Source of the DNA: Candidatus Nanoarchaeia archaeon
Lineage (GTDB): Archaea > Nanobdellota > Nanobdellia > WJKC01
Reading direction: 5' to 3'
Assembly (NCBI GenBank): GCA_041653515.1
Contig: JBAZFG010000002.1
Coordinates: 125,632 to 189,631, forward strand
DNA: 64,000 nt
A program made the position numbers and the translations under genes. The notes beneath the pieces were generated by a model that worked only from the letters and a program-made list of their open reading frames with translations, was not told the origin of the DNA and ran no database searches. Shown here one piece after another: positions 10,663 through 63,077 of the stretch. The stretch's first letter is position 1. Each line of letters opens with the position of its first letter.

Positions 10663-11789
10663 ATTAAAGTTTTGAATATATTTTCTAGTAGTGGCGTGAC
10701 TTTCTTGGTTGAGTATTGTTTGGCGTATTTTTTTATTCCTTGTTTATTTTCTTTTAGCATCTTGTTGATTTTATTTGCCCAGTCGATTGATTTGTAAGGT
10801 TCGGCCAGGTCGCCGTTTTCTTTGTTGATTAATTCATTCATTGGCCTGACATTGCTGGCTATTACTGGTTTGCCTAATGCCCATGACTCGAGTATTATTA
10901 TGCCAAATCCTTCGACTGTGCTTGGGTTGACTACGAATTTTGATTCATTTATTATCCTTAATTTATGCTCGTGACTAACTCGGCCAGTGAATAATACGCT
11001 GCTGCTAACCCCTAATCGTCTGGCTAGTGCCATCCATTGTTTTTTCATTGGTCCGTCACCAACTATTATGAATTTGGTTTTCGGGTTCTTGCCAAGCACT
11101 GATGGCATTGCTTTGATGATTGTGTCAACGTTCTTGTAAAAGACATGCCTACCAACATAACAAAATTGGTTCTTCTCTTCAGTTCTTGGCGTCTTGTAAT
11201 CAGTTAAGTCTATCATGCAGGGCACAACTCTTATTGGTCGCTTAACGCCTGCTTTTATCAAGTCCTCTTTACTGGCGTTGCTGATAGTGTGAATCATTGC
11301 TGGCCTGATTTTTAGTATTATTTTTTCCATTAATGGCCCGATTATACTGAGCCCTTTGCTGACTCCGCGCTGACCACTCCAATTATTCCAGAAACTGCCT
11401 TGAGAGTAAACATCAAAGATGCTGATAACATGGGGTATTTTTAAGCAATAGGATACTGCGTGACCACTTAATGCTGGCGCGTAAGTGTTGGAGTGAATGA
11501 TATCAGAATCCTTAGCTATCTTTAATCCTTTTTTGAATGATTTAATGATGAATGAAGCATTGTTCATTAAACTCATATTCAAGTGGCCTTTGTAATCAAT
11601 TGGTTTGCCGACCCGATGGATTTTAACCCCGTTTAATTCTTCATAGCATTTAGTGCCTTTAAGTCGCTGAGTAATAACATTAACTTCATGGCCTCGTTTG
11701 GCTAATTCTTTAGCGTACTGGAAGAACAAGTACTCGCCGCCGCCGTAGATTGCTGGCGGGTATAATTGACAGAACTGGGTTATTTTCAT
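10659..11789 (-). CDS. GT4 (GT-B fold) glycosyltransferase, intact copy of the 7288-8443 pseudogene
   Basis: C-terminal EGFGIIILESWALGKPVIAS (E-x7-E region). N-terminal YPPAIYGGGEY, typical of GT4. Confidence 0.8.
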   Translation of the reverse strand: MKITQFCQLYPPAIYGGGEYLFFQYAKELAKRGHEVNVITQRLKGTKCYEELNGVKIHRVGKPIDYKGHLNMSLMNNASFIIKSFKKGLKIAKDSDIIHSNTYAPALSGHAVSYCLKIPHVISIFDVYSQGSFWNNWSGQRGVSKGLSIIGPLMEKIILKIRPAMIHTISNASKEDLIKAGVKRPIRVVPCMIDLTDYKTPRTEEKNQFCYVGRHVFYKNVDTIIKAMPSVLGKNPKTKFIIVGDGPMKKQWMALARRLGVSSSVLFTGRVSHEHKLRIINESKFVVNPSTVEGFGIIILESWALGKPVIASNVRPMNELINKENGDLAEPYKSIDWANKINKMLKENKQGIKKYAKQYSTKKVTPLLENIFKTLI

Positions 11790-12862: not shown

Positions 12863-14770
12863 TTGTGTAGTTTAAGTTGTTTAATGAGGCGGGAGCATTT
12901 ATTATTATTGCTAATTTTGTTGCTTGGCGCTGGCTTGCGTTTGTATTCGTTGCGCAATGAATACTTCACTGGTAATGACGCGTTCATTCATTATAGTGTT
13001 ATCAGGCAGGCCTTGGTTGATGGCAACTTAGTTACTTATGAGCTTAGTTATGGTAATCCTGTTATTCTTGAGCCGTTGGGCTTTTATTTAGTGACACTTA
13101 TCCCATCATTTGTTCTTGGGCTTGACATAGCTTTCCTGTTAATGCCTGTGTTGTCTGGCGTGCTGTGCCTGCTGGTTGCTTATTACTTGTTAAGGGATTT
13201 GTTTGGCGAGCGAGCGGCTTTGATTGCAGTGCTGTTATTATCCTTGTCAATGGCTCATATTTACCGCACGAGCGCTAACACTTATCGGGGTGATGGTTTC
13301 TTCCTGACTGCTTTCTTGTTAACGCTTTATTATTTCAATAAGTCACTTAAGGCATCAGTTAAGTATTCAGTAGTTACTGGCTTGTTAATGACTCTTTGCG
13401 CTTCCTTGTGGAATGGTTATCCATTAGGCGTGATTGTTATTATCAGTGGTTTGATAATTAATTCAACTCTTAAGTTCTTGAAGAATGATTTTGCTAAAAA
13501 GGATTTGACTAATATTTTTGCTTTATTAGTGACTTATTATTTCACTGAGTTAATTCTTATTTTGACTGGCGTTACTAAGCGTTTGTTTTTCACGAGCAAT
13601 AACGCTGTTCACGCGGTCATTACTTTTGCGCCTTTGTTTATTGGGGTGATTTATTATTTCACTAAGCGCGTTAAGAAGTCAAGTGTTCTTGGCGTGCTGG
13701 CGGTTGTTGGGGTAGTCTTGTTGTTGTTGAATATTAATACAGTTTCATCGTTAGTGGCTCAGTCATTGTTTGAGAATACTTTGTTCTATGAAGTTGGTGT
13801 TAGTGAATTATTGCCGCCAACTTTTGATTTGTTGAGCGCGATGCTATCATGGTCTCTTTTCCTGATGTGGCCTGGCTTGTTGTTATTAGTGTTGCTAATC
13901 CTGAAGAAGCGTGACGCGCGCCATATTACTTTTCTTGTTTGGTCAGTTATAACAATTTACTTGATGCTTAATTACTCGCGTTATAATTTCATTGTATCAG
14001 TCAGCGCCGCTGCCTTGTCCGCACTGTTCATTAATTATCTTTATTTAAAGGCAGAGCAGTATCGTAAGAACGCTGGTCTTGTGCTGGTCTTAGTTCTTGT
14101 CCTGCTTTATGTGTTTGTTATTCCTTTAACAGGGTCTGTCACTAATTTGTTTAATAATCTTAACAGTGTTAGTCCGCGCGTGAATGCAGAGTGGGCTGAT
14201 GCCTTGACTTGGATGAGAGATAATCTTGAGCCTGACTTAACTGTTACTTGGTGGGACCATGGCTCTTGGGTTCAGTATTTTGCTGGTTTTCCCACAATTG
14301 CTGATAGTGTTACTGGTCAGGATATTGGCCGGATTACTCGAGTGGCTCAATTCTTGATGACTGCTAAGAATGATACTTTTAGTGACCTTGGCGCTAAGTA
14401 CTTAGTCTTGGGGGCTGATGACGTTCTTTATTCTAATGCAATTGTTAGTATTGCTGATGTTAGGGGTTTTGAGATGTATGGGCTTGACAGTGGTTATTTC
14501 CAATCAAATGATGATGAGTTGTATTTTATTAGCGGCGACCTTGTGCTCGCGCCTCGTTTCGTGTTCTTTGCTAATCAGTCAATTCCGTTGATAGAGTCTA
14601 ATGGCACTGGTTGTTTGATGATTAATTATCTTGAGCCAAGGCCTTATTTATTATTCCTTAATGATTATGCTTGCAATACTAATTATGCTCAATTAATGTT
14701 TGGTCTGGGCTTGCCTGGTTTTGAATTATTGTATCAGAATGATTATGTAGTTGTTTATAGGATTGAATGA
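12863..14770 (+). CDS. Short AglB/STT3-like oligosaccharyltransferase paralogue (variant WWDHG motif)
   Basis: Thirteen or so TM segments followed by TVTWWDHGSWVQYFAG (WWDYG-type motif). First-loop acidic motif GNDAFIHY. The likely true start is the ATG at 12884. Confidence 0.65.
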   Translation: MCSLSCLMRREHLLLLLILLLGAGLRLYSLRNEYFTGNDAFIHYSVIRQALVDGNLVTYELSYGNPVILEPLGFYLVTLIPSFVLGLDIAFLLMPVLSGVLCLLVAYYLLRDLFGERAALIAVLLLSLSMAHIYRTSANTYRGDGFFLTAFLLTLYYFNKSLKASVKYSVVTGLLMTLCASLWNGYPLGVIVIISGLIINSTLKFLKNDFAKKDLTNIFALLVTYYFTELILILTGVTKRLFFTSNNAVHAVITFAPLFIGVIYYFTKRVKKSSVLGVLAVVGVVLLLLNINTVSSLVAQSLFENTLFYEVGVSELLPPTFDLLSAMLSWSLFLMWPGLLLLVLLILKKRDARHITFLVWSVITIYLMLNYSRYNFIVSVSAAALSALFINYLYLKAEQYRKNAGLVLVLVLVLLYVFVIPLTGSVTNLFNNLNSVSPRVNAEWADALTWMRDNLEPDLTVTWWDHGSWVQYFAGFPTIADSVTGQDIGRITRVAQFLMTAKNDTFSDLGAKYLVLGADDVLYSNAIVSIADVRGFEMYGLDSGYFQSNDDELYFISGDLVLAPRFVFFANQSIPLIESNGTGCLMINYLEPRPYLLFLNDYACNTNYAQLMFGLGLPGFELLYQNDYVVVYRIE

Positions 14771-35506: not shown

Positions 35507-36897
35507 GCAGAGTTATTAATGTAGAATACTATTAGTTGCGCTTGAGCTGCTGATGGGTATGCTTTGATTGGCATGATGAACGAGTAGTTAAGAGTGTAAG
35601 CATAAGCAGGGTATTGTTCGTAAGCGCTGATAACTAGGAATGAGTAATTACTTACTTGTTGGAGGAATAATTCTTCAGTGGCTGGGAACGCGTCAACTGT
35701 TTTCTCGCTGTAATAAGTTAGTTGTGGCACGCTGTTAGCCATGACGTTGCCTTCGTAAGGCAGTAAGAACTCGCCTGCTTGCTTGACATATAAGTATGAA
35801 TCCTTAGCATTATTAATGCTTGTTAACCCTGTTGGCAGGTTCTCAATAATAATGATTATTGTTATTATCGCTAACGCGTAATTAATGATTTGCTTGTTTT
35901 TACTCACGTAACTAATAATGAAGCTTGCGCCAAGAATAGCTGATAAGCAAGCAAAAGGCAGTAAGTGTATTAGGAACCTAACTTCTTTGACGCTGGTTAA
36001 CAATGAGTAGAACGCTAAGTAAATGAATAAATTAAGTGCTATGAACTGCACTTTCTTATTCTTTAATTTGAAGATGATTGGTATGATGCCAATGAACACT
36101 AGTAAACCCATTAATATACCATAATTAAACAGCATGCTAGTTATGTAATAGAACATGTCACCTGCTTGCGCTCCACCAGTCGCGTTAACATTAAATGATA
36201 GGAATGATAGTGGCGTGTATACTGGGTTGTTGAATACTATGATGTCATAAATCATTAGTGGCGCGTAACCGATTAACGCGCCAAACAACCAATAATAATC
36301 CTTTAATTTTTTCTCTTTATTAATTAATGAGTAAGCAAGGTATACTACGCTCCCAATTATTGCCGTGAACTTAATACTAGCTGCTAAACCCAATAATAAA
36401 CCACTAGGCAACCGCTTGCCTTTAATGAATAATAACGCGCTTAGCACTAATAGGAACGCGCTTGGCACATCAATAGTGAACCGTAGTGACCAGTAAAGGA
36501 AGACCCATTGAAAACACATTATTAACCCTGTAATAATCCCATACTTCTCGCCTAATAATTCCTTACCTAAGTAATAAGACGCGATTGTTAAGCCCAACCC
36601 GAATAAGATGTTAATGAACCTGATTACTAATTCATTATAACCAAAAGGCAATGATAACCCATATAATATTGCTGGGTAAACGATTGACCTGCCATCCCAC
36701 CAACCAGTTGTTGGCGTGCCAATAAACAAGCTTTTAGTCATCACTAAGTATTGAGCCTCATCCCACCAGACAGTGCTATAAGCACTAATTAATGGCAGTC
36801 TTGTTATCAGGAAGACCGCACTGATTAAACCAACCCAGAAGTACTTATTATTCACTAAATCCTTTAAGTTAATCTCGTCATTATCATTCATATTCAA
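35503..36897 (-). CDS. GT-C fold membrane glycosyltransferase (ArnT/PMT, GT39/GT83-like)
   Basis: First-loop motif VWWDEAQYLVMTKSL; polytopic. The likely start is the ATG at 36891 (MNDNDEINL). Confidence 0.6.
   Translation of the reverse strand: MNMNDNDEINLKDLVNNKYFWVGLISAVFLITRLPLISAYSTVWWDEAQYLVMTKSLFIGTPTTGWWDGRSIVYPAILYGLSLPFGYNELVIRFINILFGLGLTIASYYLGKELLGEKYGIITGLIMCFQWVFLYWSLRFTIDVPSAFLLVLSALLFIKGKRLPSGLLLGLAASIKFTAIIGSVVYLAYSLINKEKKLKDYYWLFGALIGYAPLMIYDIIVFNNPVYTPLSFLSFNVNATGGAQAGDMFYYITSMLFNYGILMGLLVFIGIIPIIFKLKNKKVQFIALNLFIYLAFYSLLTSVKEVRFLIHLLPFACLSAILGASFIISYVSKNKQIINYALAIITIIIIIENLPTGLTSINNAKDSYLYVKQAGEFLLPYEGNVMANSVPQLTYYSEKTVDAFPATEELFLQQVSNYSFLVISAYEQYPAYAYTLNYSFIMPIKAYPSAAQAQLIVFYINNSA
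36822..36894. repeat. Direct repeat copy 1 (5' end of the GT-C gene); partner at 39059-39128
   Basis: The first 33 nt (tgattaaaccaacccagaagtacttattattca) are identical in both copies. The remainder has ~10 substitutions and one 3-nt indel. Confidence 0.85.
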
Positions 36898-36945
36898 TCA
36901 CTTCTTTATTATTAATAGTCATTCTTAGTTAATAGTTTTAACCTT

Positions 36946-38328
36946 TTAGTTTAAGAGAATCTTTGAAGGTTTAAAGAAATTATTCAGAATGTTCCTAATA
37001 GGTGCTTCCCTGTGTGAGATATTATTGAATATATAAGCTAGTTTGGTAAAGTCTATTAACTCATCGAATGGAATCTTTTCTTTCAGCAGGTAAGTGCCTT
37101 TCCTAATCATGTTGTCATAATCAAGCCATTCCATTGGTTTGATAACACCTTTCTTCTTGAGTAATTCATAATAATCTGCGCCAGGGTCAGGGGTAAATAC
37201 GTAGAAATGAGCAAAGTTAGTTTTATTCTTAATGGCAAAATTAATTGTTTTAATTATAGAATCCCTTGTTTCACCTGGTGCCCCAATGATGTGGCTTGCA
37301 CTAATTTCTATACCAAAAGCCTTTAATTTTTCAATACCTTGGCTTATCTGCCTGATTGTTAAGCATTTGTTCATTGACTTAAGTATTTCATCATCCCCTG
37401 ATTCAACCCCAACAAAAGCTCTCTTGTAACCTGTTTTATGCATTATATTGAGCAAGTCATTATTTATTGTGTCAAGCCGAGTGTTACTGCCCCATGTGAT
37501 GTCAAGTTTTTCTTTTTTAATTAGACTTGTGAATTCAGTGATAAACTTATGATTAGCTGTCATTGTATCATCATAAAACATAATCTTATTGGATTTAGTG
37601 ACGTCAATAACCTGTTTTATTTCATTGATAACACTTGATGGGCTTCTAAAATTAACCTTTTTTCCAAACATTTTTTTAGAAGCACAAAACTTGCAACCAA
37701 AAGGGCATCCTCTTGAAGCTATTAATACATTATAAGTATCTTCTGCCCCAAGTTTTCTATGATTACTTGGTTTGTATTTATCTAATGGGAATAAATCTCT
37801 GGCTGGGAAAGGCAGGTCATTCAGGTCAGTACTGGTTGGTTTTGTGGGGTTTAGGATGATCTTCTTGCCTTTTTTGAATACAATACCATTAACCTCTTCT
37901 AACCTTTGGTTAGCCAGTATCTTAACAATGGTTTCTTCTCCTTCACCTAGCACGCCTATATCAAAACAGTTTAATGAAATGGTTTCTAAAGGTTCTGATG
38001 TGATGTGAATGCCGCCTAGAATTATCTTTGCATTAGTTTTTGATTTTATTTCACTGGCTATCTTAATCGTATTCTTCATAAGAGGGGTTGTTGATGTAAG
38101 ACCTATAAACTTAATGTCCTTTGAGTTAATCCTTTTTATTACATCCTCAATAGTGAATTCTTCAACATTTAAGTCAAGGCATTCAACCCTATAACCTGCT
38201 TTTCTTACGCTTGCGGCAATGTATGCTAGTCCAAGGGGTAAGCTTACTGTTTGGTTTTCCTGTCTTGAGATGTTGAAATGTTTTTTTTCAAAAAAATCTT
38301 TTTGCGGGGGATTAATGAGCAATAACAT
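36946..38328 (-). CDS. Class B (B12-binding domain) radical SAM enzyme
   Basis: SRGCPFGCKFCAS cluster motif. N-terminal LPLGLAYIAASVRKAGYRVECLD, FIGLTS and ILGGIHIT form the B12-binding-type domain. Markedly AT-rich. Confidence 0.8.
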   Translation of the reverse strand: MLLLINPPQKDFFEKKHFNISRQENQTVSLPLGLAYIAASVRKAGYRVECLDLNVEEFTIEDVIKRINSKDIKFIGLTSTTPLMKNTIKIASEIKSKTNAKIILGGIHITSEPLETISLNCFDIGVLGEGEETIVKILANQRLEEVNGIVFKKGKKIILNPTKPTSTDLNDLPFPARDLFPLDKYKPSNHRKLGAEDTYNVLIASRGCPFGCKFCASKKMFGKKVNFRSPSSVINEIKQVIDVTKSNKIMFYDDTMTANHKFITEFTSLIKKEKLDITWGSNTRLDTINNDLLNIMHKTGYKRAFVGVESGDDEILKSMNKCLTIRQISQGIEKLKAFGIEISASHIIGAPGETRDSIIKTINFAIKNKTNFAHFYVFTPDPGADYYELLKKKGVIKPMEWLDYDNMIRKGTYLLKEKIPFDELIDFTKLAYIFNNISHREAPIRNILNNFFKPSKILLN

Positions 38329-38417
38329 ACTAGAAATTAGTTTAATTAGTATTATAAGACTTTTTTAAAATTTTTTTAGAATCATAAAATTTATTTTATA
38401 AAAACTCTAAAGATGAA

Positions 38418-38573
38418 ATGCGTAAGTACAAGCCAAAGTATTTGTACTTAATTAAACAATTAAAAGATAGAGGTGTTGTGCATACTAAAATAAGGAGTGA
38501 TAAACAGTTATGCATTAAGTTAACACCTACTGGTCATTTTCTGTTAAAAATTTTGAACAAAGCGGGTAATTAA
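38418..38573 (+). CDS. Small ORF (51 aa), possibly a winged-helix-like DNA-binding protein; below the ORF-track cutoff
   Basis: Translates to MRKYKPKYLYLIKQLKDRGVVHTKIRSDKQLCIKLTPTGHFLLKILNKAGN. Its TAA shares a TTAA with the convergent NUDIX stop, a pattern seen at three other convergent pairs. Confidence 0.3.
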   Translation: MRKYKPKYLYLIKQLKDRGVVHTKIRSDKQLCIKLTPTGHFLLKILNKAGN

Positions 38574-38986
38574 TTCCGTATTAAATTGATGAAATCAATT
38601 ATACCTGGTAATAACTCGTCTTCCTTTAATTTATTAATTTCAATCCATTTTAGGTCCTTTGTTTTATGGTCATCAAGGTTTGGTTGCCCGCTGATTAATT
38701 GTGATTCATAGCATAGTACAATAACGTGTTTTCTATGGTCAGGGTAATCCCATATATTTGTATGAACATATGGAATCATTTGTTTTGGTTTAACAATATA
38801 ACCTGTTTCTTCTAATACTTCTCTGGCCACAGCATCTTCAGGTTTCTCGCCAAAATCAATTTTTCCACCTGGTAATTCCCATTTTAAATGCGCGCCCGGC
38901 ATAATTTCTTCATCCCTTAGTAAAAGTAGTATTTCATTACCTCTTTTAATTAGGGCTGTCGCGACAATAATTATTTGGTCATTCAT
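38570..38986 (-). CDS. NUDIX hydrolase
   Basis: Nudix box GGKIDFGEKPEDAVAREVLEETG. Confidence 0.85.
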   Translation of the reverse strand: MNDQIIIVATALIKRGNEILLLLRDEEIMPGAHLKWELPGGKIDFGEKPEDAVAREVLEETGYIVKPKQMIPYVHTNIWDYPDHRKHVIVLCYESQLISGQPNLDDHKTKDLKWIEINKLKEDELLPGIIDFINLIRN

Positions 38987-39035
38987 GAATTAAAAATTAC
39001 CAGATAATCCATTAAGTATTTTGTGATTACCTTTT

Positions 39036-39125
39036 TTAAATTTGATGTTGGTCAGTGATGATTAAACCAACCCAGAAGTACTTATTATTCATTAGGTCTT
39101 TTAGGTTTATTTCATCTTCATTCAT
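39036..39125 (-). pseudogene. Orphan 5' fragment (29 codons) duplicated from the GT-C gene 35503-36897
   Basis: Translates to MNEDEINLKDLMNNKYFWVGLII..., against MNDNDEINLKDLVNNKYFWVGLIS in the intact gene. Its ATG overlaps the stop of the upstream gene as ATGA. It terminates after 29 codons. Confidence 0.7.
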
Positions 39126-40141
39126 ATTGTCATCCTCGCTATGATGAATGCTGCCACGCAGAATAATGATTCAATCATCATTAAGAATGGAGTGATGTAT
39201 TCTTCTCGTTTTACTAATCTCATAGCTAAGTGTGTTAGTGAGTAAGTCTTCTTGTACTTAGGTTTTAGTGTGCCATCTTTCTGTAGTTCACCAAGACTGC
39301 TGGCCTTGAATTTCTTACGAGCTTTTAATGCAAACTCAATGAACCAAGGCGCGAACGCTATTAGCGCGAACTTCTCAATATTACCAATAATGATTGACGC
39401 GCCAAACACTGTGCCAACTAAGTATGGCAGTGTGTCGCCTGGCAGGAAACTCGCTGGGTACTTGTTGAATTTAAGGAAGCCTGCAAGACAAGCAGCTGTT
39501 GTTAAAGCAAGTATTGCGCCTTCAATCGTGCCGTAAAAATATGAGTATAAGCCAGTGCCAGTGAGTAATACTAAGCCTAAGCCTGTTTCTAAACCATTCA
39601 TGCCCGCGAGCATATTAGTCGCGTTGCCGCTGAAAATAATGATTAATGGCACAATGATTAGTGGGTAAATAATACCAATATTAACTGGCCCAACAAATGG
39701 AATGCTCACTAAGCTTTGGCCAGCGTTAATAGCCATTAATGGCACAGCAGCTATTAGTGAGATAATCACTTTATGCCATTGTTTTAATCCGATCCGCGTG
39801 TCAATCTCATCCTTATTAGTTCGTTGTTCTGGTTGAATGTTAATATCATCAAGGGTTATTAGTAAGGTTATTGTTAACACGCTTGTTAGGCCGGCGAATA
39901 ATAATGTTAAATTAGTTCCTGCGTTAGTGACAAAGACTGTGATGAAAATATAAGCCATTAAAGCTGTTAGTAAACCAATTGCTATTGGTATGCCACCACT
40001 GGTCGCCATCTTAGGCTTATTTTTCTTCTGGATATCCATTGCCTTCATACCTATTTTCTCAAGGAATCGCTTCAAGTAAGGGGCTATTATTATTGTGGCC
40101 ACAAAACCAGTTATTATTGTTATGATTAATGATTCATCCAT
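39122..40141 (-). CDS. UDP-GlcNAc:dolichyl-phosphate GlcNAc-1-phosphate transferase family (MraY/WecA/AglH-type)
   Basis: NATNMLAGMNGLETG motif; about 10 TM segments; directly downstream of aglB. Confidence 0.8.
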   Translation of the reverse strand: MDESLIITIITGFVATIIIAPYLKRFLEKIGMKAMDIQKKNKPKMATSGGIPIAIGLLTALMAYIFITVFVTNAGTNLTLLFAGLTSVLTITLLITLDDINIQPEQRTNKDEIDTRIGLKQWHKVIISLIAAVPLMAINAGQSLVSIPFVGPVNIGIIYPLIIVPLIIIFSGNATNMLAGMNGLETGLGLVLLTGTGLYSYFYGTIEGAILALTTAACLAGFLKFNKYPASFLPGDTLPYLVGTVFGASIIIGNIEKFALIAFAPWFIEFALKARKKFKASSLGELQKDGTLKPKYKKTYSLTHLAMRLVKREEYITPFLMMIESLFCVAAFIIARMTI

Positions 40142-40177: not shown

Positions 40178-40339
40178 TGCCCCCGCAGTTTGGAATAAAC
40201 TTTTTTCAATAAGCAGGGGGATCAGGAAATGCCTAAAACTGAGGGGGATGTGCCCCCGCGGTTTGGAATAAACTTTTTTCAATAAGCAGGGGGATCAGGA
40301 AATGCCTAAAACTGAGGGGGATGTGCCCCCGCGGTTTGG
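40178..40339 (-). repeat. Tandem repeat, 73-bp unit x 2.2, each unit carrying one GC-hairpin element of the dispersed family
   Basis: Units start at 40178, 40251 and 40324 (tgcccccgc[a/g]gtttgg...) and are nearly identical. The array fills the aglB-to-GPT intergenic region, starting right after the aglB stop. Confidence 0.9.
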
Positions 40340-42958
40340 TTACCAGGCAGGACTGCCGTTATCAACCCATGGCATCATTGCAGTATAATTAATGTGATAA
40401 ATATTAATGTTGGTTGGGTCGTATTGTGATATTAATCCTCTTATGTTTAGTGAGTTACTTGAGTAGACTAATTCAAAACCAGGTATTGTTTCGTTCAATA
40501 AGTATAAGTGAGTCATGAAACGATCATTTAAGTCTGATGGGATGTGAATTAAGCCTCCTTCAATGAATTCAATACAAGAGTCAATGCCGTTAGTCTCATT
40601 AAAGTAAGTGCAGCCATTACCATAATCACAAACGCAATTGTATGGGTGAAGCGTGTTACTGCCCGTAGCTAAGTTATAAACTACTGCTTGTGGCTGACCA
40701 AAAGATTGGTCTTCAGCCATTGGTATTAAAACGTTTACTATGTAACTCTCGCCTTTAGGGAATAATACACCATCAATGATTGTGTCAGCGCCAACATAAC
40801 CTGGTGAGGCTAAGTAATTGAAAACTAGTAGTGTGCTGAATTGTTCAGGATTATACAAGTTATTATCCACTTGCTGGCTGTAAGTGTAAGGTGCGTAATA
40901 ACCTGGCCTGCCACCAATATTAGCCATCTGAACATATTTTAGTATATCATCATCCATGACTAATAAATAATTAGGCCTATTGCCTGTTTCATTATTCTTG
41001 AAGTAATCAAGTGAGTCATAAACCTCTGTCATGTTAAAGCCGCTAAACATTTGGCCGCCAATAACTTCATCCCATACTACTTGGAAGTTACCCCCATCAA
41101 CTGTTGTTGCCCGCTCGCCCATGGTTTGAACCCAGTAACCATAATCCCACCAATGAGTGAATACAGCGTTAGTGTCAGTGTTATTCCTAACCCAACTCAT
41201 TGATTCGCCCCAATCATTAGTGAAGCTTGGAATCATTGTTGAAGCATCTTCAACAATAACATAGTAACTCCATATTACTAATAGTATTGCGACTGCGTAA
41301 ATAGCTGTTGAGTAAACTTTATCACTTGTTATTTTGCTGATTAAATTATTTATCCGCTCAATAGCGTAAGCAGCTAATAACACGAATATTGGGGTGCTAG
41401 CAAAGACAATTCTTATTGCGCCCCTAGTTGCAATAACACTTAAAGCAAACCATAAGATGATTATTAGTTTACTTGGCGTTAACTCACCCCACTTACTGCT
41501 CTTATGGAATTTAATGTAAAATAATATTACTGTTAAAGCCAATAATGGCAGTGTTAGTAAGTAAGTGTTCTCAAAGAATAAATTAATTGCTTCATAACCG
41601 TTTAAGTTAACGAATTTGCTAAACATGAAGAATAAGATGAACACAGTAAACATTATCACTACTGATGTGGCTTTCTTGCCAAACTTACCTAATACTTCTT
41701 GAACTAATAATGCTCCACCAATAACAAATAATGGCACAAACCATTGAAGCCTATGCCACCAGTCAACCCCGTTAGGGTCATAGAACCATGGGGCTTGGTT
41801 TTCAGTAACTGAGACGCAGAAAGCACAAGTGCCAAAAGGGTTTAGTATTGTATCAAGAGCGCCTTGTAGTTTGGCGCCAACATCAAATAATCCAGTTAAT
41901 TGCATTACTGGCAGACCAACCATTATTAATACTGCCATCATTATTACGAAATAAAAATTATCAGGCCACTTCTTGTTCTTGATTAAGTTACTGATGAATA
42001 AATCATAAACAATTTTTAATCCAAGCACTAACGCTGTGATAGTTGGTATTAAGAACATATCAATCATGATTAAACCAAAACCATTATAGCGCAGGGTCAT
42101 TGTAGCGTTCATTAATATTATTGGGATGAACCACGCAAAGTAAGTGATTACGTTTTTATTGCTTAATTTACCCATTAAAGCAAGGAATAGGAATGCTAAG
42201 CCAATGCTGAAGAATAAGAAGTTAGCCCCACCCCAAGTCAGGCTTGATAAGCCAGCTAATACGCCTGATATTAACCCGTAAATTAATGCTTGTTTAGTCT
42301 TATTTGCCCTAATTGATTTGACTAATGCATAAATCATGCTAAACCAAAAGACTGTTGCAAGCGCTTCCTTATCACTAAACCCTGCCATGGTCCTGAATAA
42401 ATATGATGGGATTAATGATAAAAACGCTGTGGCAATTAACGCTGTTTTCTTGTTGAATATTTCTTTAGTCATTAAGAAAAAGAATATCATGCTTATTACA
42501 AACGCAACAACTGGGTAAATCATTGAATAACTCATTAGTTCGCCGCCAAATAATGGGTGAAATATTGTGTATAATCCTGCAACAAAGTAAGACACTAATT
42601 GGTGCTCCTTGAAAGTGCTAAAACCTTCTGGAAAATAACGAAATGAATCCATTTCAGGCAGGGTGCCCTGCTCCACTAGTGTTTCAGTGTAGCGGTAAAA
42701 AACATACGGGTCAAGACCAAGCAATAAACCATTGTATAATGGTATGCTTAGCATCCTAACCCAAGCCCCAACTAATATAATACTAATTAATGCTGCGTAT
42801 AATATTATCTTCTTATTTTCTTTGAGGAATTTTACTGCTTCGCCAAAATTAAGTTCATCCTCATCAGTGGTTGCTGGTTTTTTCTCTTTCTTATCACTGC
42901 TAAACCAGCCTTTAATCTTTCGCCCTATCTCCCCGAAATCAATTTCTTCATCACTCAA
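40340..42958 (-). CDS. aglB: Archaeal oligosaccharyltransferase AglB (STT3 family), long form
   Basis: Canonical HWWDYGYWVQ motif, first-loop GLDPYVFYRY, about 13 TM segments and a large C-terminal domain. Confidence 0.9.
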   Translation of the reverse strand: MSDEEIDFGEIGRKIKGWFSSDKKEKKPATTDEDELNFGEAVKFLKENKKIILYAALISIILVGAWVRMLSIPLYNGLLLGLDPYVFYRYTETLVEQGTLPEMDSFRYFPEGFSTFKEHQLVSYFVAGLYTIFHPLFGGELMSYSMIYPVVAFVISMIFFFLMTKEIFNKKTALIATAFLSLIPSYLFRTMAGFSDKEALATVFWFSMIYALVKSIRANKTKQALIYGLISGVLAGLSSLTWGGANFLFFSIGLAFLFLALMGKLSNKNVITYFAWFIPIILMNATMTLRYNGFGLIMIDMFLIPTITALVLGLKIVYDLFISNLIKNKKWPDNFYFVIMMAVLIMVGLPVMQLTGLFDVGAKLQGALDTILNPFGTCAFCVSVTENQAPWFYDPNGVDWWHRLQWFVPLFVIGGALLVQEVLGKFGKKATSVVIMFTVFILFFMFSKFVNLNGYEAINLFFENTYLLTLPLLALTVILFYIKFHKSSKWGELTPSKLIIILWFALSVIATRGAIRIVFASTPIFVLLAAYAIERINNLISKITSDKVYSTAIYAVAILLVIWSYYVIVEDASTMIPSFTNDWGESMSWVRNNTDTNAVFTHWWDYGYWVQTMGERATTVDGGNFQVVWDEVIGGQMFSGFNMTEVYDSLDYFKNNETGNRPNYLLVMDDDILKYVQMANIGGRPGYYAPYTYSQQVDNNLYNPEQFSTLLVFNYLASPGYVGADTIIDGVLFPKGESYIVNVLIPMAEDQSFGQPQAVVYNLATGSNTLHPYNCVCDYGNGCTYFNETNGIDSCIEFIEGGLIHIPSDLNDRFMTHLYLLNETIPGFELVYSSNSLNIRGLISQYDPTNINIYHINYTAMMPWVDNGSPAW

Positions 42959-42965
42959 TTTAACA

Positions 42966-43784
42966 TCATACTCCTAATGAAATGTAAACCTCTAATAATC
43001 CCCCGATTATTAATACAATGCTTGCAAGCACTATTAAATCAATGGAATCAAGTAATACCTCTTTAAATTTATTACTCTTAGGGTCATGCCTTATTACTGC
43101 TGCACTAATAATGCCTCCTGCAATGCCTGCGAGGAAGTAAGCAATTAATTCTGGCAGACCATGAACTAAGTAACGACCAAACCCTAGTGGCACTGCCTGA
43201 AAATAAGAAGACCAATTACTAATATTGGTTTTAATTGCGTTGCCAATAGCGACGCCGAGCACGCTTGAGTTCCACGTGATAATAAATATTGCGCCCGCCC
43301 CGTATAATAAGCTAAATATTAAGCAGAAGAGTAATACTTTGAAGTTATTGGCTAATATTATTTTTAATAAATCTGTTTGCACTGCATTGCCTTGAATGGC
43401 TGATGAGTTAATGCTTCTGATAGTGTTTATTTGCTCTGAGAATATTTTTGCGTTAAGGCTGTCAGGCATTATGACATACCATGTGGTGAATGTTATTAAT
43501 AATCCCATTGACATGAAGAATATTACGCCGAGCACATCTTTATGATTGCCAATTAAGGGGTATTGTTTTTTGGTGAAATCCTCTGATTCCTCTCGTTTTA
43601 GCACGTTAACTAGTAATGGCACGCCAGCCATTGTTGTAAGAAAAACCATACTTAATGACGGGTCTGATGGGAATAACCACATGCTGACTACTAAGCCAAG
43701 GCTCGCGTATATCACGCCTAATATTGTCATTTTCCAAGGCTTGGCTCTAACTTCTTTACTGCTTAATATTGACTCAAAAACCAT
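42966..43784 (-). CDS. Integral membrane protein, SpoIIM/DUF95-like
   Basis: Six or so TM segments. GLPELIAYFLAGIAGG resembles SpoIIM-family blocks. Assigned from memory only. Confidence 0.4.
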   Translation of the reverse strand: MVFESILSSKEVRAKPWKMTILGVIYASLGLVVSMWLFPSDPSLSMVFLTTMAGVPLLVNVLKREESEDFTKKQYPLIGNHKDVLGVIFFMSMGLLITFTTWYVIMPDSLNAKIFSEQINTIRSINSSAIQGNAVQTDLLKIILANNFKVLLFCLIFSLLYGAGAIFIITWNSSVLGVAIGNAIKTNISNWSSYFQAVPLGFGRYLVHGLPELIAYFLAGIAGGIISAAVIRHDPKSNKFKEVLLDSIDLIVLASIVLIIGGLLEVYISLGV

Positions 43785-44838
43785 TAATCACCTCTAATTT
43801 TCGGCTCCTGCCTTGGAATCCTTCGCCAGTATCAGTTGCTTTGATTAGTCCTTGTTTTCTTAATCGGTTAATGTAGCGCCTAAAACTCCTAATGCTTAAT
43901 TCGCCATGTATCTCGCGGTAATTCTTGTAAGCATCGCCGCTAATAATATTAGGGTTCTCTTTTATGATGTTAATTATTTTTTCTTCATGGTCGCTTAATT
44001 CCTGAGGTAAGTTAATAGTTATTGTCTTAATTGCTTCTTCAACGTGCTTGACTGTTATTTTCCTGCTAGCATCCCGCTCAGCCCTGCGTCCAGCTTCTAA
44101 TAATAAGTTGATTGCTTTCCTAACATCTGTGCCTGAATTAATACTTACTTCATGGACTACTCCTTCGCTTACAACACTTGGGTGGAACGCTTGTTTGGCC
44201 CTGCGTTCAATAATGTTTTTCATCTCGCGCGTAGTGTATGGCTTGAACTCCATGTTATTAAGGTTTAATCGCGACATTAATCGTGGTTCAATATAATTCT
44301 TGTACTTAGGGTTGTTAGTGACCATTAAGATGCATACCCGTTCTAAGTTTAGTAATGAGTATATTATGTCAAGGTCTTTTATTTTATCCACTTCATCAAG
44401 GCAGACTACTGCTCCTTTTTCCCTTAGTTTTCTCATCGCGTTATTAAGTATTTCTTCGGTCGGCACACCTTTAGGGGGATAGAGCATGCCTAATCGTCGC
44501 GCTATCTCTAAAGCTATTGTGTGAGTGGTCTGGCTTTCCCAGCAATTAATGAATACTGGTACAATATCGCTGGTCTCTTTTAATTCGTTAAAAATATATT
44601 TGATGCTCGCTGTCTTGCCAAGCCCAGGCATGCCGTGGATGAATACATTACTCCCTAAGCGATTTTGTAATAATGGTTTGATGAAACTAGCTATTTCTTT
44701 AATCTCATTGTCCCGTTCAGGCATTTCTTCTGGTTGGAATTTATAATCGAGAATAGTTTCATCCTTGAACAAAGTCTCGTTGTCCATCAGGATATCTTTG
44801 AATAAGCCCCCCATAATAGTAAGGGACACGCTAATCAT
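43774..44838 (-). CDS. cdc6: Orc1/Cdc6 replication initiator
   Basis: Walker A GMPGLGKT, Walker B VVCLDEVD and a C-terminal winged-helix region (RSFRRYINRLRKQGLI). Confidence 0.9.
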   Translation of the reverse strand: MISVSLTIMGGLFKDILMDNETLFKDETILDYKFQPEEMPERDNEIKEIASFIKPLLQNRLGSNVFIHGMPGLGKTASIKYIFNELKETSDIVPVFINCWESQTTHTIALEIARRLGMLYPPKGVPTEEILNNAMRKLREKGAVVCLDEVDKIKDLDIIYSLLNLERVCILMVTNNPKYKNYIEPRLMSRLNLNNMEFKPYTTREMKNIIERRAKQAFHPSVVSEGVVHEVSINSGTDVRKAINLLLEAGRRAERDASRKITVKHVEEAIKTITINLPQELSDHEEKIINIIKENPNIISGDAYKNYREIHGELSIRSFRRYINRLRKQGLIKATDTGEGFQGRSRKLEVINGF

Positions 44839-57336: not shown

Positions 57337-57488
57337 TTAGAAATCACTGAGTTTTTTCTGCTTAGTCCCTAACCGCAGGGAGGGGTGACCCCTCCCTTCA
57401 GTTTTAGGGTAATCCTGATTCCCACCCCCCTACGATTGTAATTATGCCAGAGACATGTTAGAAATCACTGAGTTTTTTCTGCTTAGTC
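57337..57488 (+). repeat. GC-hairpin element copy A (57368-57457), bracketed by 31-bp direct repeats (57337-57367 and 57458-57488)
   Basis: ttagaaatcactgagttttttctgcttagtc occurs twice, identically. The right copy is the last 31 nt (stop codon included) of nucS. The core aaccgcagggaggggtgacccctcccttcagttttagggtaatcctgattccc lies at 57371-57423. Confidence 0.85.
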
Positions 57489-58210
57489 TTATCAACTATG
57501 TTCCTGTTTGGTGGTTCTACTTGGCAGAACTTAAAGCTCCAGTCATGGAGCATTTGTTCAGCGTTCTTAGTGATGCCTGGCGCTGCGATGTAACCAATGA
57601 CTTTGTCAATTCCTTTAGCTGCCTTGATTCTCTCAACGTAGCGCCTTAGTTGTTGGACCGCGCTAAGCCCGGCAGTCACTCGCTTACACTCAATAATTAT
57701 TAATGCTCCTTCACCATCATGGCCCATCACGTCAATAAAACCATATTTTGTTTGTTCTTCAAGGCTGACTGGCCTAAAGTCAATGCTAATAATATGTGGG
57801 TGCTCATAAATCATGCGCGCCATGTCAGCTTCACTGCCCATAATCATTACTTCTTCATCATCGCTTAGTTGGCCTGAGATTAGTAAGTCAATGCTGGTTA
57901 TTTTAATGACCATTTGTTCTCTTGGGTTGATTGATTCAGCAGTGATGAATAATGAGTCGCCAGCTTCAACCCTGATGCTCGCGCCTTCTTTTATCCAGTT
58001 AACTGGGTTCCTGCCTGTTGGTTTGTGAACTAATAGTGTTTTGTCTGTTTTGATGGTGACTGCCCTGCCGCCCCGCTCGAGCTTTGAGTAAGCCCTGCCT
58101 TCATACTTAACCTCGCACTCGCAGTAAAGTGTGATTAACTCGTTTCGCTTGAGTGCTTGGTCTAATACGTTCTTGGTTGTATCAAAATCAGGTTTAACAT
58201 AATTGCTCAT
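57458..58210 (-). CDS. nucS: NucS/EndoMS mismatch-specific endonuclease
   Basis: C-terminal RecB-like nuclease block IDVMGHDGEGALIIIECKR...AVQQLRRYV; 250 aa. Confidence 0.85.
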   Translation of the reverse strand: MSNYVKPDFDTTKNVLDQALKRNELITLYCECEVKYEGRAYSKLERGGRAVTIKTDKTLLVHKPTGRNPVNWIKEGASIRVEAGDSLFITAESINPREQMVIKITSIDLLISGQLSDDEEVMIMGSEADMARMIYEHPHIISIDFRPVSLEEQTKYGFIDVMGHDGEGALIIIECKRVTAGLSAVQQLRRYVERIKAAKGIDKVIGYIAAPGITKNAEQMLHDWSFKFCQVEPPNRNIVDKTKQKKLSDF

Positions 58211-62791: not shown

Positions 62792-62935
62792 GGGCCCGTA
62801 GCGCAGTTTGGATAGCGCGACAGGCTTCTACACTCGACGCTTCGCGTCTCGTTCCGTCCTTCGGACGGCCGCTCGCTTAAAACGAGCGGGGGTGAGGATA
62901 CCTGTAGGTCGTGGGTTCAAATCCCTCCGGGCTCG
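62792..62935 (+). tRNA. tRNA-Arg (anticodon UCU) with a 69-nt intron at the canonical 37/38 position
   Basis: Acceptor GGGCCCG/CGGGCTC, D arm GCGC-agtttggata-GCGC, anticodon stem ACAGG/CCTGT with loop ct-TCT-a, T arm GTGGG-ttcaaat-CCCTC. Exon 1 is 62792-62830, the intron 62831-62899 and exon 2 62900-62935. No encoded CCA. Confidence 0.85.
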
Positions 62936-63077
62936 CACGAAAACCGCAGGGAGGGGAGACCCCTCCCTTCAGTTCATCTCCTGATTCCCACCTCCTTGAC
63001 AATTTGCGCCAGGGGTGCTGAAATATTAATCTGCACGAAGTTTTGGATGATTAGTCCAATTTACTCCGGGCTCACAC
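62925..63077 (+). repeat. GC-hairpin element copy B, bracketed by the tRNA 3' end and a 13/14-nt copy of it
   Basis: ctccgggctcgcac (62925-62938) is repeated as ctccgggctcacac (63064-63077). The core aaccgcagggaggggagacccctcccttcagttcatctcctgattccc lies at 62942-62989. Confidence 0.8.

What the first reader, a model, noticed from the sequence alone, without database searches (positions are those of the whole stretch)
40178..40339. 73-bp tandem array of the hairpin element fills the aglB-to-GlcNAc-1-P-transferase intergenic region
Units begin at 40178, 40251 and 40324, giving 2.2 copies with only one substitution seen (a/g at the ninth base of the unit). The array starts right after the aglB stop codon. 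It ends ~37 nt before the next gene's ATG, just upstream of a TATA-like caattaaaaaac. Each unit combines the GC hairpin with an A/T-rich segment (cttattgaaaaaagtttatt on the coding strand). It therefore sits exactly where transcription of the two core N-glycosylation genes must be either coupled or separated. Near identity of the units implies recent amplification.
Basis: seen in the sequence. Interest (0 to 1): 0.55.

Follow-up and report, generated by a model that had tools for sequence, protein, structure and literature searches.

The report
Tandem copies of a DPANN hairpin repeat
The 73-bp array is a clean 162-bp insertion made of two and a bit copies of a small folded repeat that is scattered through tiny DPANN archaeal genomes, where it inserts next to gene ends and duplicates the last few dozen bases of the gene.

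Summary
Window 40178-40339 holds 2.2 head-to-tail copies of a 73-nt unit with one substitution. It starts at the base after the aglB (STT3) stop codon and ends 36 nt before the GT4 start codon.

It is not a local device. A syntenic relative has only the 36-nt spacer, so the whole array is an insertion. Each unit is a 51-nt structured core (K) plus a 22-nt tail. Two more K copies lie in the window, at 57368-57424 and 62941-62990.

The K pattern matched 99 loci from DPANN metagenome-assembled genomes (MAGs): Micrarchaeota, Aenigmatarchaeota, Altiarchaeota, Iainarchaeota and Nano/Woesearchaeota. It was absent from Rfam, from viral contigs and from the held literature. The hairpin shows compensatory changes.

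One end of K is fixed at the hairpin foot; the other end varies. Exact direct repeats of 12-49 nt flank 31 of 88 copies, against 0.45% of control sites. These repeats are usually the terminal segment of a tRNA or protein gene. Clusters and arrays are common. No transposase, integrase or reverse transcriptase lies nearby.

Best reading: a non-autonomous mobile repeat, amplified locally. The way it moves is inferred; I favour template switching through an RNA/cDNA intermediate.

The parts
40178..40339 (-). Whole array. Read on the minus (aglB-sense) strand it is K-S-K-S-K'. It is a 162-nt insertion relative to the ancestral aglB-GT4 spacer.
   Evidence: The empty site is seen in syntenic L116.
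40289..40339 (-). K core, copy 1 (51 nt): CCA-AACCGC-GGGGG-CACAT-CCCCC-TCAGTT-TTAGGCATT-TCCTGAT-C-CCCC.
   Evidence: Covariance model R1 scores 62.3 bits, E 1.4e-15; the modelled strand is '+'.
40267..40288 (-). Tail S, copy 1 (22 nt): TGCTTATTGAAAAAAGTTTATT. It carries a T6 run on the plus strand.
40216..40266 (-). K core, copy 2, identical to copy 1.
   Evidence: R1 scores 62.3 bits.
40194..40215 (-). Tail S, copy 2.
40178..40193 (-). K', the first 16 nt of K only (CCAAACTGCGGGGGCA). It carries the single substitution (C>T on this strand), which turns the fixed C.A mismatch into a U-A pair.
   Evidence: The junction is confirmed in the Logan contig L115.
40142..40177 (-). Native 36-nt spacer with the TATA-like AATTAAAAAAC upstream of the GT4 ATG. 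It is the same length as the whole spacer in L116.
40340..42958 (-). STT3/AglB oligosaccharyltransferase gene. Its stop codon directly abuts the array.
   Evidence: Pfam STT3, E 9.5e-15; 60% identical to the L116 homologue.
39122..40141 (-). Glycosyltransferase family 4 gene (GlcNAc-1-P-transferase type).
   Evidence: Pfam Glycos_transf_4, E 2.8e-24.
57368..57457 (+). Dispersed copy B: K (57368-57424) plus a 33-nt tail. K-forward is on the plus strand, antisense to nucS.
   Evidence: R1 scores 62.0 bits; sequence.
57337..57367 (.). Left copy of the perfect 31-nt direct repeat flanking B. It duplicates the last 31 nt of nucS, stop codon included.
   Evidence: family D17, 100%.
57458..57488 (.). 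Right copy of the 31-nt repeat. It forms the true 3' end of nucS (57458-58210, minus strand).
62941..62990 (+). Dispersed copy C: a degenerate K lacking 5 nt of the linker and the foot pairing. It starts 5 nt after an intron-containing tRNA (62792-62935).
   Evidence: R1 scores 43.6 bits; tRNA from Rfam at 49.7 bits; sequence.
63054..63077 (+). Degenerate copy (19 of 24) of the tRNA's T-loop-to-3'-end segment (62915-62938), lying downstream of copy C.
   Evidence: Read directly from the sequence; a 10-nt exact core CTCCGGGCTC was found.

Best explanation
The array is a recent local amplification of one member of a family of small, non-autonomous, structured mobile repeats, here called K elements. 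These are dispersed in DPANN archaeal genomes. A K element is a roughly 51-nt core followed by a lineage-specific tail of 0-140 nt. The core is a long imperfect hairpin: a foot helix with a 2-nt bulge, a fixed 3x3 internal loop and a GC-rich variable stem. A 22-nt linker and a C-run whose length matches the stem G-run follow the hairpin.

Shown: in this genome a K element was inserted exactly after the aglB stop codon, upstream of the intact native GT4 promoter spacer. Elsewhere, family members have one fixed end at the hairpin foot and one variable end, and they are flanked by direct duplications of 12-65 nt of target. The duplicated segment is typically the terminal piece of a gene: tRNA T-loop to 3' end, tRNA 5' end to D-loop, or the last codons plus stop of an ORF. 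Repeated insertions at one site build arrays.

Inferred (about 0.4): copies are made from an RNA or single-strand intermediate whose terminus is the hairpin foot. A polymerase, most simply a reverse transcriptase, switches template between that intermediate and the end of a cellular transcript. The hybrid product then enters the chromosome by homology or by target priming. Under this model the K-S-K-S-K' layout arises in one of two ways. Either end-to-end template jumps produced two full copies and one aborted copy, or replication slippage or unequal exchange between the 16-nt K 5' repeats followed the insertion.

The element is probably selfish. At this locus it adds a hairpin plus U4 in the aglB-sense direction and a hairpin plus U6 in the antisense direction. 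It does not remove the GT4 promoter.
For: Insertion: the syntenic relative L116 (GT4 72%, AglB 60%, SpoIIM 74% amino-acid identity) has a 36-nt aglB-GT4 spacer. The window has 162 nt of array plus 36 nt.

Of these, 99 are archaeal with the GC hairpin, nearly all labelled DPANN. The 15 bacterial matches lack the hairpin and score only 19-27 bits, against 50-76 bits for the archaeal ones. The window's LeuRS is closest to 'Candidatus Nanoarchaeia archaeon' among named sequences.

Structure: 93.2% of cells are paired. 93 cells show double-sided changes, against 31.7 in shuffles (0 of 500 shuffles reach the observed value). The foot pair -2:mid3 is CG 55, TA 15, GC 11.

Mobility signature: 31 of 88 copies have an exact flanking repeat of at least 11 nt adjacent to the fixed end, against 8 of 1760 control sites. 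The left repeat ends 0-3 nt from the conserved C-Y-R-AACCGC end. Inserts are 47-197 nt.

Repeats coincide with gene termini. Window copy B: 31 of 31 nt to the nucS stop. tRNA cases: 24/25, 18/20, 16/17 and 17/17 nt to the tRNA 3' end.

Filled versus empty sites: relatives L155-L159 (LeuRS 66-69%) have nucS and the same tRNA but no K.

Arrays and clusters occur in L001, L027, L056, L058, L093, L042, L066 and L031. L019 holds two different hairpin elements, each followed by a fresh copy of the same tRNA end, which shows successive insertions.

Non-autonomous: no recurrent neighbouring gene (at most 7 of 99 loci, all housekeeping). No reverse transcriptase, integrase or transposase lies in the window.

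Array layout: L001 also has full units followed by a truncated K next to a tRNA 3' end.

Precedents: reverse transcriptases switch end-to-end between templates (bioRxiv 10.1101/792986, abstract shown). Integration by hybrid cDNA plus homologous recombination is named in the title of Chiang et al. 1994 (reference 39 of PMC12737674; details recalled from memory).
Against: No polymerase, reverse transcriptase or transposase could be linked to the element. No CCA or other untemplated RNA mark is present at tRNA junctions, so the boundaries could equally be DNA-level cuts.

The array itself shows no flanking target duplication.

The acting strand is ambiguous. The reverse strand folds better (-20.3 versus -13.6 and -37.4 versus -27.8 kcal/mol) and turns the fixed C.A and 12 stem A.C mismatches into G.U pairs. 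However, the foot pair -1:mid0 is G.T on the forward strand in 45 of 85 copies.

Invariance of AACCGC, TCAGTT and TCCTGATYCCC is partly forced by the search pattern.

Copy number in the array rests on a single assembly.
Confidence: 0.7

Rival explanations
1. K is a DNA transposon derivative (MITE-like) or a small integrative element. It would be moved in trans by an enzyme that makes widely staggered cuts, such as a Cas1/casposase-like integrase, an IS1634-type transposase or a tRNA-targeting recombinase. The flanking repeats would then be ordinary target-site duplications.
For: Flanking direct repeats occur at 35% of copies against 0.45% of controls. Insertion occurs in both orientations relative to the target gene. 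(Target-insert)n arrays at tRNA 3' ends (L056, L058, L019) resemble tandem casposon insertions and CRISPR repeat duplication (my knowledge of the casposon literature). There is microhomology between the K end GGTTCRG and the tRNA T-loop GGTTCRA. No CCA is present at junctions.
Against: There are no terminal inverted repeats: 3.5 of 16 matches against 3.9 in the control. Only one end is conserved. Repeat length varies widely (12-49 nt exact, up to about 65 nt with mismatches), whereas DDE or Cas1 enzymes give a fixed length. No candidate enzyme gene lies beside any of 99 loci or in the window. There are no hits in 2.9 million viral contigs.
Confidence: 0.2
2. K is a host-selected functional RNA or cis element, such as a 3'-end processing or stability element, a terminator or a small RNA gene. 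On this view the array is there to insulate aglB from GT4, and mobility is incidental or absent.
For: The structure is conserved across phyla with compensatory changes. Position is immediately after stop codons and tRNA 3' ends. There is a hairpin plus UCAGUUUUAG on the aglB-sense strand and a hairpin followed by T6 on the other strand. The equal-length G-run and C-run with concerted R/Y/Y changes suggest a tertiary fold.
Against: K is absent from the orthologous aglB-GT4, nucS and tRNA sites of the closest relatives. It occurs in either orientation relative to the neighbouring gene. Flanking duplications mark it as an insertion. There is no Rfam family. In the array the better-folding strand is antisense to both genes.
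Confidence: 0.07
3. K is an integron attC-type recombination site, making the locus a cluster of attC sites lacking an integrase.
For: An imperfect hairpin is bracketed by ...AAC and GTT..., with bulged bases and a variable terminal loop, placed at gene 3' ends. Integrons and attC clusters have been reported in archaeal MAGs, including DPANN lineages (PMC9668308).
Against: The R'' box would need RYYYAAC and the R' box GTTRRRY. Here the base before AAC is a purine in 94 of 99 copies, and the base after GTT is a pyrimidine in 85 of 85. The element boundary lies 3 nt before AAC, not inside GTT. Flanking 12-49-nt duplications are not produced by IntI. The neighbours are core housekeeping genes and tRNAs, not promoterless cassettes. 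There is an extra conserved TCCTGAT-Y-C(n) module. No intI is present.
Confidence: 0.02
4. The array is a one-off slippage repeat or an assembly artefact with no wider meaning.
For: The units are perfectly identical. The short-read Logan contig breaks inside the repeat.
Against: The unit is a 62-bit match to a model built from other genomes. Two further copies lie in the window. The variant base in K' and both outer junctions are present in the contig, and the promoter-side junction appears in an independent assembly.
Confidence: 0.01

Closest known systems
REP/BIME and other bacterial small intergenic palindromic repeats (e.g. ERIC, RUP, Correia)
   Same: Short GC-rich imperfect palindromes, extragenic, often just after stop codons, in many copies per genome, often clustered or tandem, non-coding, with side effects on termination or mRNA stability.
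   Different: K has one fixed end and one variable end. It has long, variable flanking duplications of the target, an extra linker plus C-run module, and is found in DPANN archaea. No RAYT/IS200-type partner was seen, and REP insertion makes no duplication.
SINE/LINE-type retroposition (target-primed reverse transcription)
   Same: Non-autonomous short elements. One end is constant and structured (a stem-loop) and the other is variable or truncated. Target duplications vary in length between copies. Copies sit head to tail. tRNA genes are preferred neighbours.
   Different: No reverse-transcriptase partner was identified. There is no A-tail or simple-repeat tail. The hosts are prokaryotes. Duplications are longer, and their edges coincide with gene termini.
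Neurospora mitochondrial retroplasmid integration (hybrid cDNA plus homologous recombination; Chiang et al. 1994, cited in PMC12737674)
   Same: This is a proposed route, not a demonstrated parallel. A polymerase switches between the element RNA and the end of a tRNA or mRNA. The chimeric copy then enters the genome at the gene whose end it carries, leaving that gene end duplicated.
   Different: That system has a known reverse transcriptase and a 3' tRNA-like CCA end, and the captured tRNA copies carry CCA. Here no reverse transcriptase is known and there is no CCA at the junctions.
Casposons and CRISPR repeat duplication (Cas1 integrases)
   Same: Insertion at tRNA or gene 3' ends with duplication of a 14-37-bp target; repeated insertion at one site gives (target-insert)n arrays.
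   Different: Those duplications have a fixed length and the inserts have two defined ends (terminal inverted repeats or processed spacers). K has neither, and no cas1 gene lies nearby.
Integron attC sites
   Same: A folded imperfect hairpin with AAC...GTT at its base, bulged bases and a variable loop, located at gene 3' ends.
   Different: The R''/R' consensus is not met, the boundary is different, flanking duplications are present, and there is neither cassette context nor an integrase.

Membership tests
Tandem repeat (minisatellite-type array) | At least two head-to-tail copies of one unit with high identity | tested here: met
   Period 73, 2.2 copies, 98% matches.
K-element family (defined here) | Match to covariance model R1, built from 60 copies in other genomes | tested here: met
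   62.3 bits twice in the array, 62.0 bits for copy B and 43.6 bits for copy C. The next best hit in the 64-kb window scores 11.9 bits.
K-element family (defined here) | Flanking direct duplication of the target next to the fixed end | tested here: inconclusive
   Met for window copy B (31 nt, perfect) and, in degenerate form, for copy C. The array itself has no host duplication, only the 16-nt K'.
MITE (miniature inverted-repeat transposable element) | Terminal inverted repeats at both ends | tested here: not met
   Terminal 16-mers of 30 delimited inserts match at a mean of 3.5 of 16 positions, against 3.9 in the shuffled control.
MITE | Short target-site duplication of fixed length | tested here: not met
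   Flanking repeats are 12-49 nt exact and variable.
REP/BIME | Extragenic imperfect palindrome, multi-copy, clustered | tested here: met
REP/BIME | Associated RAYT (IS200/IS605-like TnpA) and insertion without target duplication | tested here: not met
   Duplications are present. No such gene lies in the window or among neighbours. Whole genomes were not searchable.
SINE-like retroposon | One constant structured end, one variable or truncated end, and target duplications of variable length | tested here: met
SINE-like retroposon | A reverse-transcriptase-encoding partner sharing the constant end | not testable with these tools
   Only 8-kb blocks around matches were available. None of the 99 loci has K beside a recurrent ORF.
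Integron attC | R'' = RYYYAAC and R' = GTTRRRY | tested here: not met
   Position -1 is a purine in 94 of 99 copies. The first base after GTT is a pyrimidine in 85 of 85.
Integron attC | Array of promoterless cassettes, with intI or at least two attC sites within 4 kb | tested here: not met
   The neighbours are aglB, GT4, nucS, LeuRS and a tRNA. No recombinase is present.
Intrinsic (hairpin plus oligo-U) terminator | GC stem directly followed by a U-rich run on the transcribed strand | tested here: inconclusive
   A consensus scan flags GGGGGCACATCCCCC plus TCAGTTTTAG twice on the aglB-sense strand, but the longest T run is only 4. A T6 run lies on the opposite strand. Archaeal termination was not assayed.
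Known RNA families (Rfam 15), including group II intron domains and self-cleaving ribozymes | Score at or above the family gathering threshold | tested here: not met
   Only the tRNA passes in the window. Permissive scans of the array and of copy B give only chance-level hits.
CRISPR array | Identical repeats separated by unique spacers of similar length | tested here: not met
   Whole units, including the part between hairpins, are identical.

The most novel reading that the evidence does not exclude
K elements are an archaeal counterpart of SINEs. They would be small structured RNAs, with termini defined at the hairpin foot, that are copied by a template-switching polymerase together with the ends of tRNAs and mRNAs and pasted back at those genes. 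That would make retroposition-like copy-and-paste a general force shaping gene ends in DPANN genomes. The matched G-run/C-run and the concerted R/Y/Y positions would form a triple helix that the copying machinery recognises.
Probability: 0.3. Interest if true: 0.85.

Novelty: new variant of a known kind. Interest (0 to 1): 0.66.

Why it matters
DPANN archaea have very small, gene-dense genomes and are generally thought to be poor in mobile DNA. A conserved, structured repeat shared by several DPANN phyla would be a new handle on how these genomes change, because it inserts at gene termini, duplicates tRNA and ORF ends, and builds arrays. It would also be a practical marker for assembly breaks and strain variation. 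If an RNA/cDNA route is confirmed, it would be a rare prokaryotic case of SINE-like retroposition outside group II introns. For this locus the consequence is narrower. The two core N-glycosylation genes were adjacent, with a 36-nt spacer, before a selfish repeat landed between them. Any effect on their coupling is therefore a by-product to be measured, not a designed switch.

Tried and rejected
- **Rfam.** I ran it at gathering and permissive thresholds. Only a tRNA passed, with no ribozyme, group II intron domain or sRNA family.
- **Group II intron domain V and HDV-like fold, checked by eye.** K has no AGC triad with a 2-nt bulge and GNRA loop, and no P3/L3 hairpin, so I dropped both.
- **Integron attC.** The box consensus is not met (paper PMC9668308).
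- **Integrated provirus between copies B and C.** The interval holds nucS, LeuRS and an MFS transporter, which are housekeeping genes.
- **A linked enzyme.** I clustered 2219 ORFs from 99 loci and found no family in more than 7 loci; all were housekeeping genes. All 56 window ORFs scanned against Pfam gave no reverse transcriptase, integrase, transposase or Cas1.
- **Viral contigs.** There were 0 matches.
- **Terminal inverted repeats.** None were found.
- **Watson-Crick pairing of the distal C-run with the stem G-run.** The orientation is wrong for the concerted Y positions and there is no consistent flanking complement.
- **Literature.** Searches for DPANN repeats, long target duplications and the literal core sequences found nothing relevant.
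- **Copy-number variation in relatives.** 39 loci with GT4 relatives and 5 loci with LeuRS relatives contain no K at all. They gave empty sites, not variant arrays.
- **Independent assemblies of the array.** Logan contigs stop inside or short of it.
- **Exact-match look-ups of AglB and LeuRS products.** Neither was on record.
Full report
**1. The observation**

Tandem Repeats Finder reports one strong array in the window: 40178-40339, period 73, 2.2 copies, 98% matches, no indels, score 317. Every other hit scores 46 or less. The two full units differ at one base, and the third, partial unit is 16 nt long.

Both flanking genes are on the minus strand. The upstream ORF is an 872-codon STT3/AglB gene (42958..40340). 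The downstream ORF is a 339-codon family-4 glycosyltransferase gene, GT4 (40141..39122). The array begins at the base after the aglB TAA and ends 36 nt before the GT4 ATG. An independent Logan contig from run SRR18595300 carries the identical GT4 gene and starts inside the repeat. This confirms the promoter-side junction and shows that short-read assembly breaks here. The exact copy number rests on one assembly.

**2. Anatomy**

Read in the aglB sense, the array is K-S-K-S-K'.
- K (51 nt) is CCA-AACCGC-GGGGG-CACAT-CCCCC-TCAGTT-TTAGGCATT-TCCTGAT-C-CCCC.
- S (22 nt) is TGCTTATTGAAAAAAGTTTATT.
- K' is the first 16 nt of K and carries the only substitution.

That substitution converts a family-wide C.A mismatch into a U-A pair.

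**3. The array is an insertion**

A metagenome contig, L116, is syntenic with the window. Amino-acid identities are 74% for the SpoIIM-like protein, 60% for AglB, 72% for GT4, 58% for the Alg9-like GT22 and 67% for Cdc6. Its aglB stop and GT4 start are separated by 36 nt and it carries no K.

In the window, exactly 36 nt remain between the array and the GT4 ATG, including the TATA-like AATTAAAAAAC. The AglB C-termini align up to the stop codon. The 162 nt were therefore inserted between the stop codon and an intact spacer. None of 39 loci with GT4 relatives contains K.

**4. Other copies in the window**

A covariance model built from other genomes (section 5) finds exactly four full K copies in the 64 kb. 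Two are in the array. Copy B is at 57368-57424 and copy C at 62941-62990.

Copy B lies between the nucS stop codon and the next gene. It is flanked by a perfect 31-nt direct repeat, which is the last 31 nt of nucS including its stop codon.

Copy C starts 5 nt after an intron-containing tRNA. It is followed, about 65 nt further on, by a degenerate copy (19 of 24) of that tRNA's T-loop-to-3'-end segment.

Relatives with 66-69% identical LeuRS keep nucS and the same tRNA next to the MFS gene, but they have no K anywhere in 61 kb. B and C are therefore also insertions.

**5. The family**

The core pattern was AACCGC, a gap, TCAGTT, a gap, then TCCTGATYCCC.

Ninety-nine of these carry the GC hairpin. 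They come from Micrarchaeota, Aenigmatarchaeota, Altiarchaeota, Iainarchaeota, Woese/Nanoarchaeota and unclassified archaeal metagenome-assembled genomes (MAGs), often on several contigs of one MAG. The 15 bacterial matches lack the hairpin. A model built from 60 non-redundant copies scores the archaeal copies at 50-76 bits and the bacterial pattern matches at only 19-27 bits.

The window's LeuRS is nearest, among named sequences, to 'Candidatus Nanoarchaeia archaeon' (57%), so the source is probably a DPANN archaeon.

One caveat applies. The three motifs in the pattern are invariant by construction. The model also recovers copies in which they vary, for example TCCTGACCC, CCAGTT and GCTGTT.

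**6. Structure**

The columns that the pattern did not fix support a long hairpin.
- 93.2% of cells are paired.
- 93 cells show changes on both sides, against 31.7 in shuffles (0 of 500 shuffles reach the observed value). All slid registers score much worse.
- The foot helix pairs position -2 with the fourth base after GTT: CG 55, TA 15, GC 11. This places the element's fixed end exactly at the hairpin foot. Conservation stops 3 nt before AACCGC.

Two further regularities are not Watson-Crick.
- The pyrimidine closing the stem and the pyrimidine in TCCTGAT-Y are identical in 96 of 96 copies.
- The stem G-run and the distal C-run have equal length in 72 of 99 copies (r = 0.74).

The polarity fits a third strand laid along the purine strand, that is a triple helix, on either strand. 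This was not tested.

The reverse strand folds better: -20.3 versus -13.6 kcal/mol for an array unit and -37.4 versus -27.8 kcal/mol for copy B. It also turns the fixed C.A and most stem mismatches into G.U pairs. One foot pair, however, is G.T on the forward strand in 45 of 85 copies. The acting strand is unresolved.

**7. Insertion signature**

Of 88 copies with enough flank, 31 have an exact direct repeat of 11 nt or more. Its left copy ends within 12 nt, usually 0-3 nt, of the fixed end. Its right copy follows a tail of 0-140 nt. Only 8 of 1760 random control sites do the same. Repeat lengths are 12-49 nt exact, and two cases extend to about 60-65 nt with mismatches. Inserts are 47-197 nt and have no terminal inverted repeats.

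The duplicated segment is typically the terminal piece of a gene.
- For tRNAs it runs from the T-loop to the 3' end plus 0-3 nt: 24/25, 18/20, 16/17 and 17/17 nt.
- For ORFs it ends at or near the stop codon: 31/31, 12/12 and 51/49 nt.
- In L017 and L058 it runs from 2 nt upstream of a tRNA 5' end to the D-loop.

K copies lie within 10 nt of a tRNA gene eleven times more often than random sites do. Both orientations relative to the target gene occur.

Clusters are frequent. (Target-K-tail)n arrays occur in L056, L058, L027 and L001. L019 holds two different hairpin elements, each followed by its own copy of the same tRNA end, which shows successive insertions at one site.

No gene family recurs next to K. 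The window encodes a glycosylation island plus housekeeping genes and no mobile-element enzyme. No viral contig carries K.

**8. Mechanism**

Shown: K is an inserted, multi-copy, structured, non-autonomous element. It has one fixed terminus at the hairpin foot, it carries duplications of the target, and it recurs at gene termini.

Inferred: how it moves. Three observations suggest that nucleic-acid ends, not a sequence-specific nuclease, set the boundaries.
- The duplication lengths are broad, which argues against a DDE or Cas1-type enzyme with a fixed stagger.
- The duplication edges coincide with RNA landmarks: transcript or tRNA termini, and the T-loop and D-loop.
- The K end (GGTTCRG) shares microhomology with the T-loop.

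I therefore favour, at about 0.4, a copy-and-paste route. A polymerase, most simply a reverse transcriptase, starts on the end of a cellular RNA and switches to the K RNA. It runs to the K terminus and then switches back. The hybrid copy then enters the chromosome by homology with the gene end, or by target priming.

End-to-end template switching is a documented property of non-LTR-type reverse transcriptases (bioRxiv 10.1101/792986, abstract). Integration by a hybrid cDNA plus homologous recombination is the title claim of Chiang et al. 1994 for a Neurospora retroplasmid (reference 39 of PMC12737674). I could not read that paper, so its details are from memory.

Evidence against this route:
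- No reverse transcriptase was found.
- tRNA junctions carry no CCA.
- Both element orientations would need both strands to be transcribed.

A DNA route with widely staggered cuts remains a serious rival, at about 0.2.

**9. The array itself**

The K-S-K-S-K' layout has two simple origins.
- Concatenation during copying: two complete passes and one aborted in the hairpin loop.
- A single K-S-K' insertion followed by slippage or unequal exchange between the two 16-nt K 5' segments.

The second origin explains why the two full units are identical and the variant base sits in the outer, partial copy. L001 shows the same layout, full units ending in a truncated K beside a tRNA-Phe 3' end, but there the units have diverged. 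The layout therefore recurs in the family. I cannot choose between the two origins.

**10. Effect at this locus**

The GT4 spacer with its TATA-like box is intact. GT4 probably keeps its own promoter, now 162 nt further from aglB.

On the aglB-sense strand each unit offers a 5-bp GC hairpin followed by UCAGUUUUAG. A bacterial-type scan flags this, but it contains only four consecutive U. On the opposite strand each unit has a T6 run about 10 nt after the better-folding hairpin. Termination, read-through and antisense effects are all possible, and none was measured.

**11. Comparison and novelty**

K works like the small intergenic repeats of bacteria (REP/BIME, MITEs) and, in its asymmetry and variable duplications, like SINEs. 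It fails the defining tests for four families.
- MITEs: no terminal inverted repeats and no fixed short duplication.
- REP/RAYT: duplications are present.
- attC: the box consensus, the boundary and the context are all wrong.
- CRISPR: whole units, including the part between hairpins, are identical.

It matches no Rfam family. The literal core sequences and several topic searches found no description in the held literature. Absence from that library is not proof that the family is undescribed.

I rate it a new variant of a known kind: a small non-autonomous prokaryotic repeat with an unusual insertion signature and an unusual fold, apparently confined to DPANN archaea. The array that prompted the finding is an ordinary manifestation of that family. 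The family is the interesting part.

Noticed in passing
window 36822-39121: A NUDIX gene (38570-38986) and a B12-binding radical-SAM gene (36946-38328) lie between GT4 and the Alg9-like GT22 gene. They are flanked by a 63-nt direct repeat (84% identity; 36822-36884 and 39059-39121) that is the first 22 or so codons of GT22. In syntenic L116, GT4 and GT22 overlap (ATGA). This is a 2.2-kb two-gene insertion with duplication of a gene's 5' end. It has the same signature as the K inserts but contains no K.
   Followed up: partly
L155 2160-2260 (relative with 69% identical LeuRS): The orthologous intron-containing tRNA has its last 18 nt (AATCCCTCCGGGCTCGTA) duplicated 62 nt downstream. The insert ends in an unrelated hairpin (CTCTGTGCTAAAGCACAG) preceded by GGAGGG, which pairs with the copied T-stem strand. 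The same tRNA segment is therefore duplicated around a different insert in a related genome.
   Followed up: partly
L019 about 4150-4290: A second, different hairpin element (AGCTTTTCAGGGGGGATACTTCCCCCCTAAAAGCT) sits between tRNA-Thr and the K copy. It is also followed by its own copy of the tRNA 3' end and preceded by a G6 run equal to its stem G6. This hints at a wider superfamily that shares the matched-run feature.
   Followed up: no
L001 2330-2490; L093 431-532; L100 (second copy in the array): K variants carry 55-260-nt insertions inside the hairpin loop, and in L001 also inside the linker. The loop therefore tolerates large additions.
   Followed up: no
window 62792-62935: A tRNA gene with an intron of about 70 nt was found by Rfam (49.7 bits) but missed by ARAGORN with default settings.
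   Followed up: partly
window 7288-7998 and 10659-11789: Two adjacent short ORFs (133 and 102 aa) together match one group-1 glycosyltransferase. They are 73-82% identical at the DNA level to the intact paralogue 3.3 kb away, so this is probably a disrupted duplicate gene.
   Followed up: no
window 12863-14770: A second, shorter STT3/PMT_2-type oligosaccharyltransferase paralogue (635 aa) lies inside the same 40-kb glycosylation gene island. The island also holds many GT1/GT2/GT4 genes, NDP-sugar enzymes and four radical-SAM genes.
   Followed up: no
window 43774-44838: An Orc1/Cdc6 gene lies two genes upstream of aglB and is conserved in synteny with L116. A replication origin may be close by; this was not examined.
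   Followed up: no
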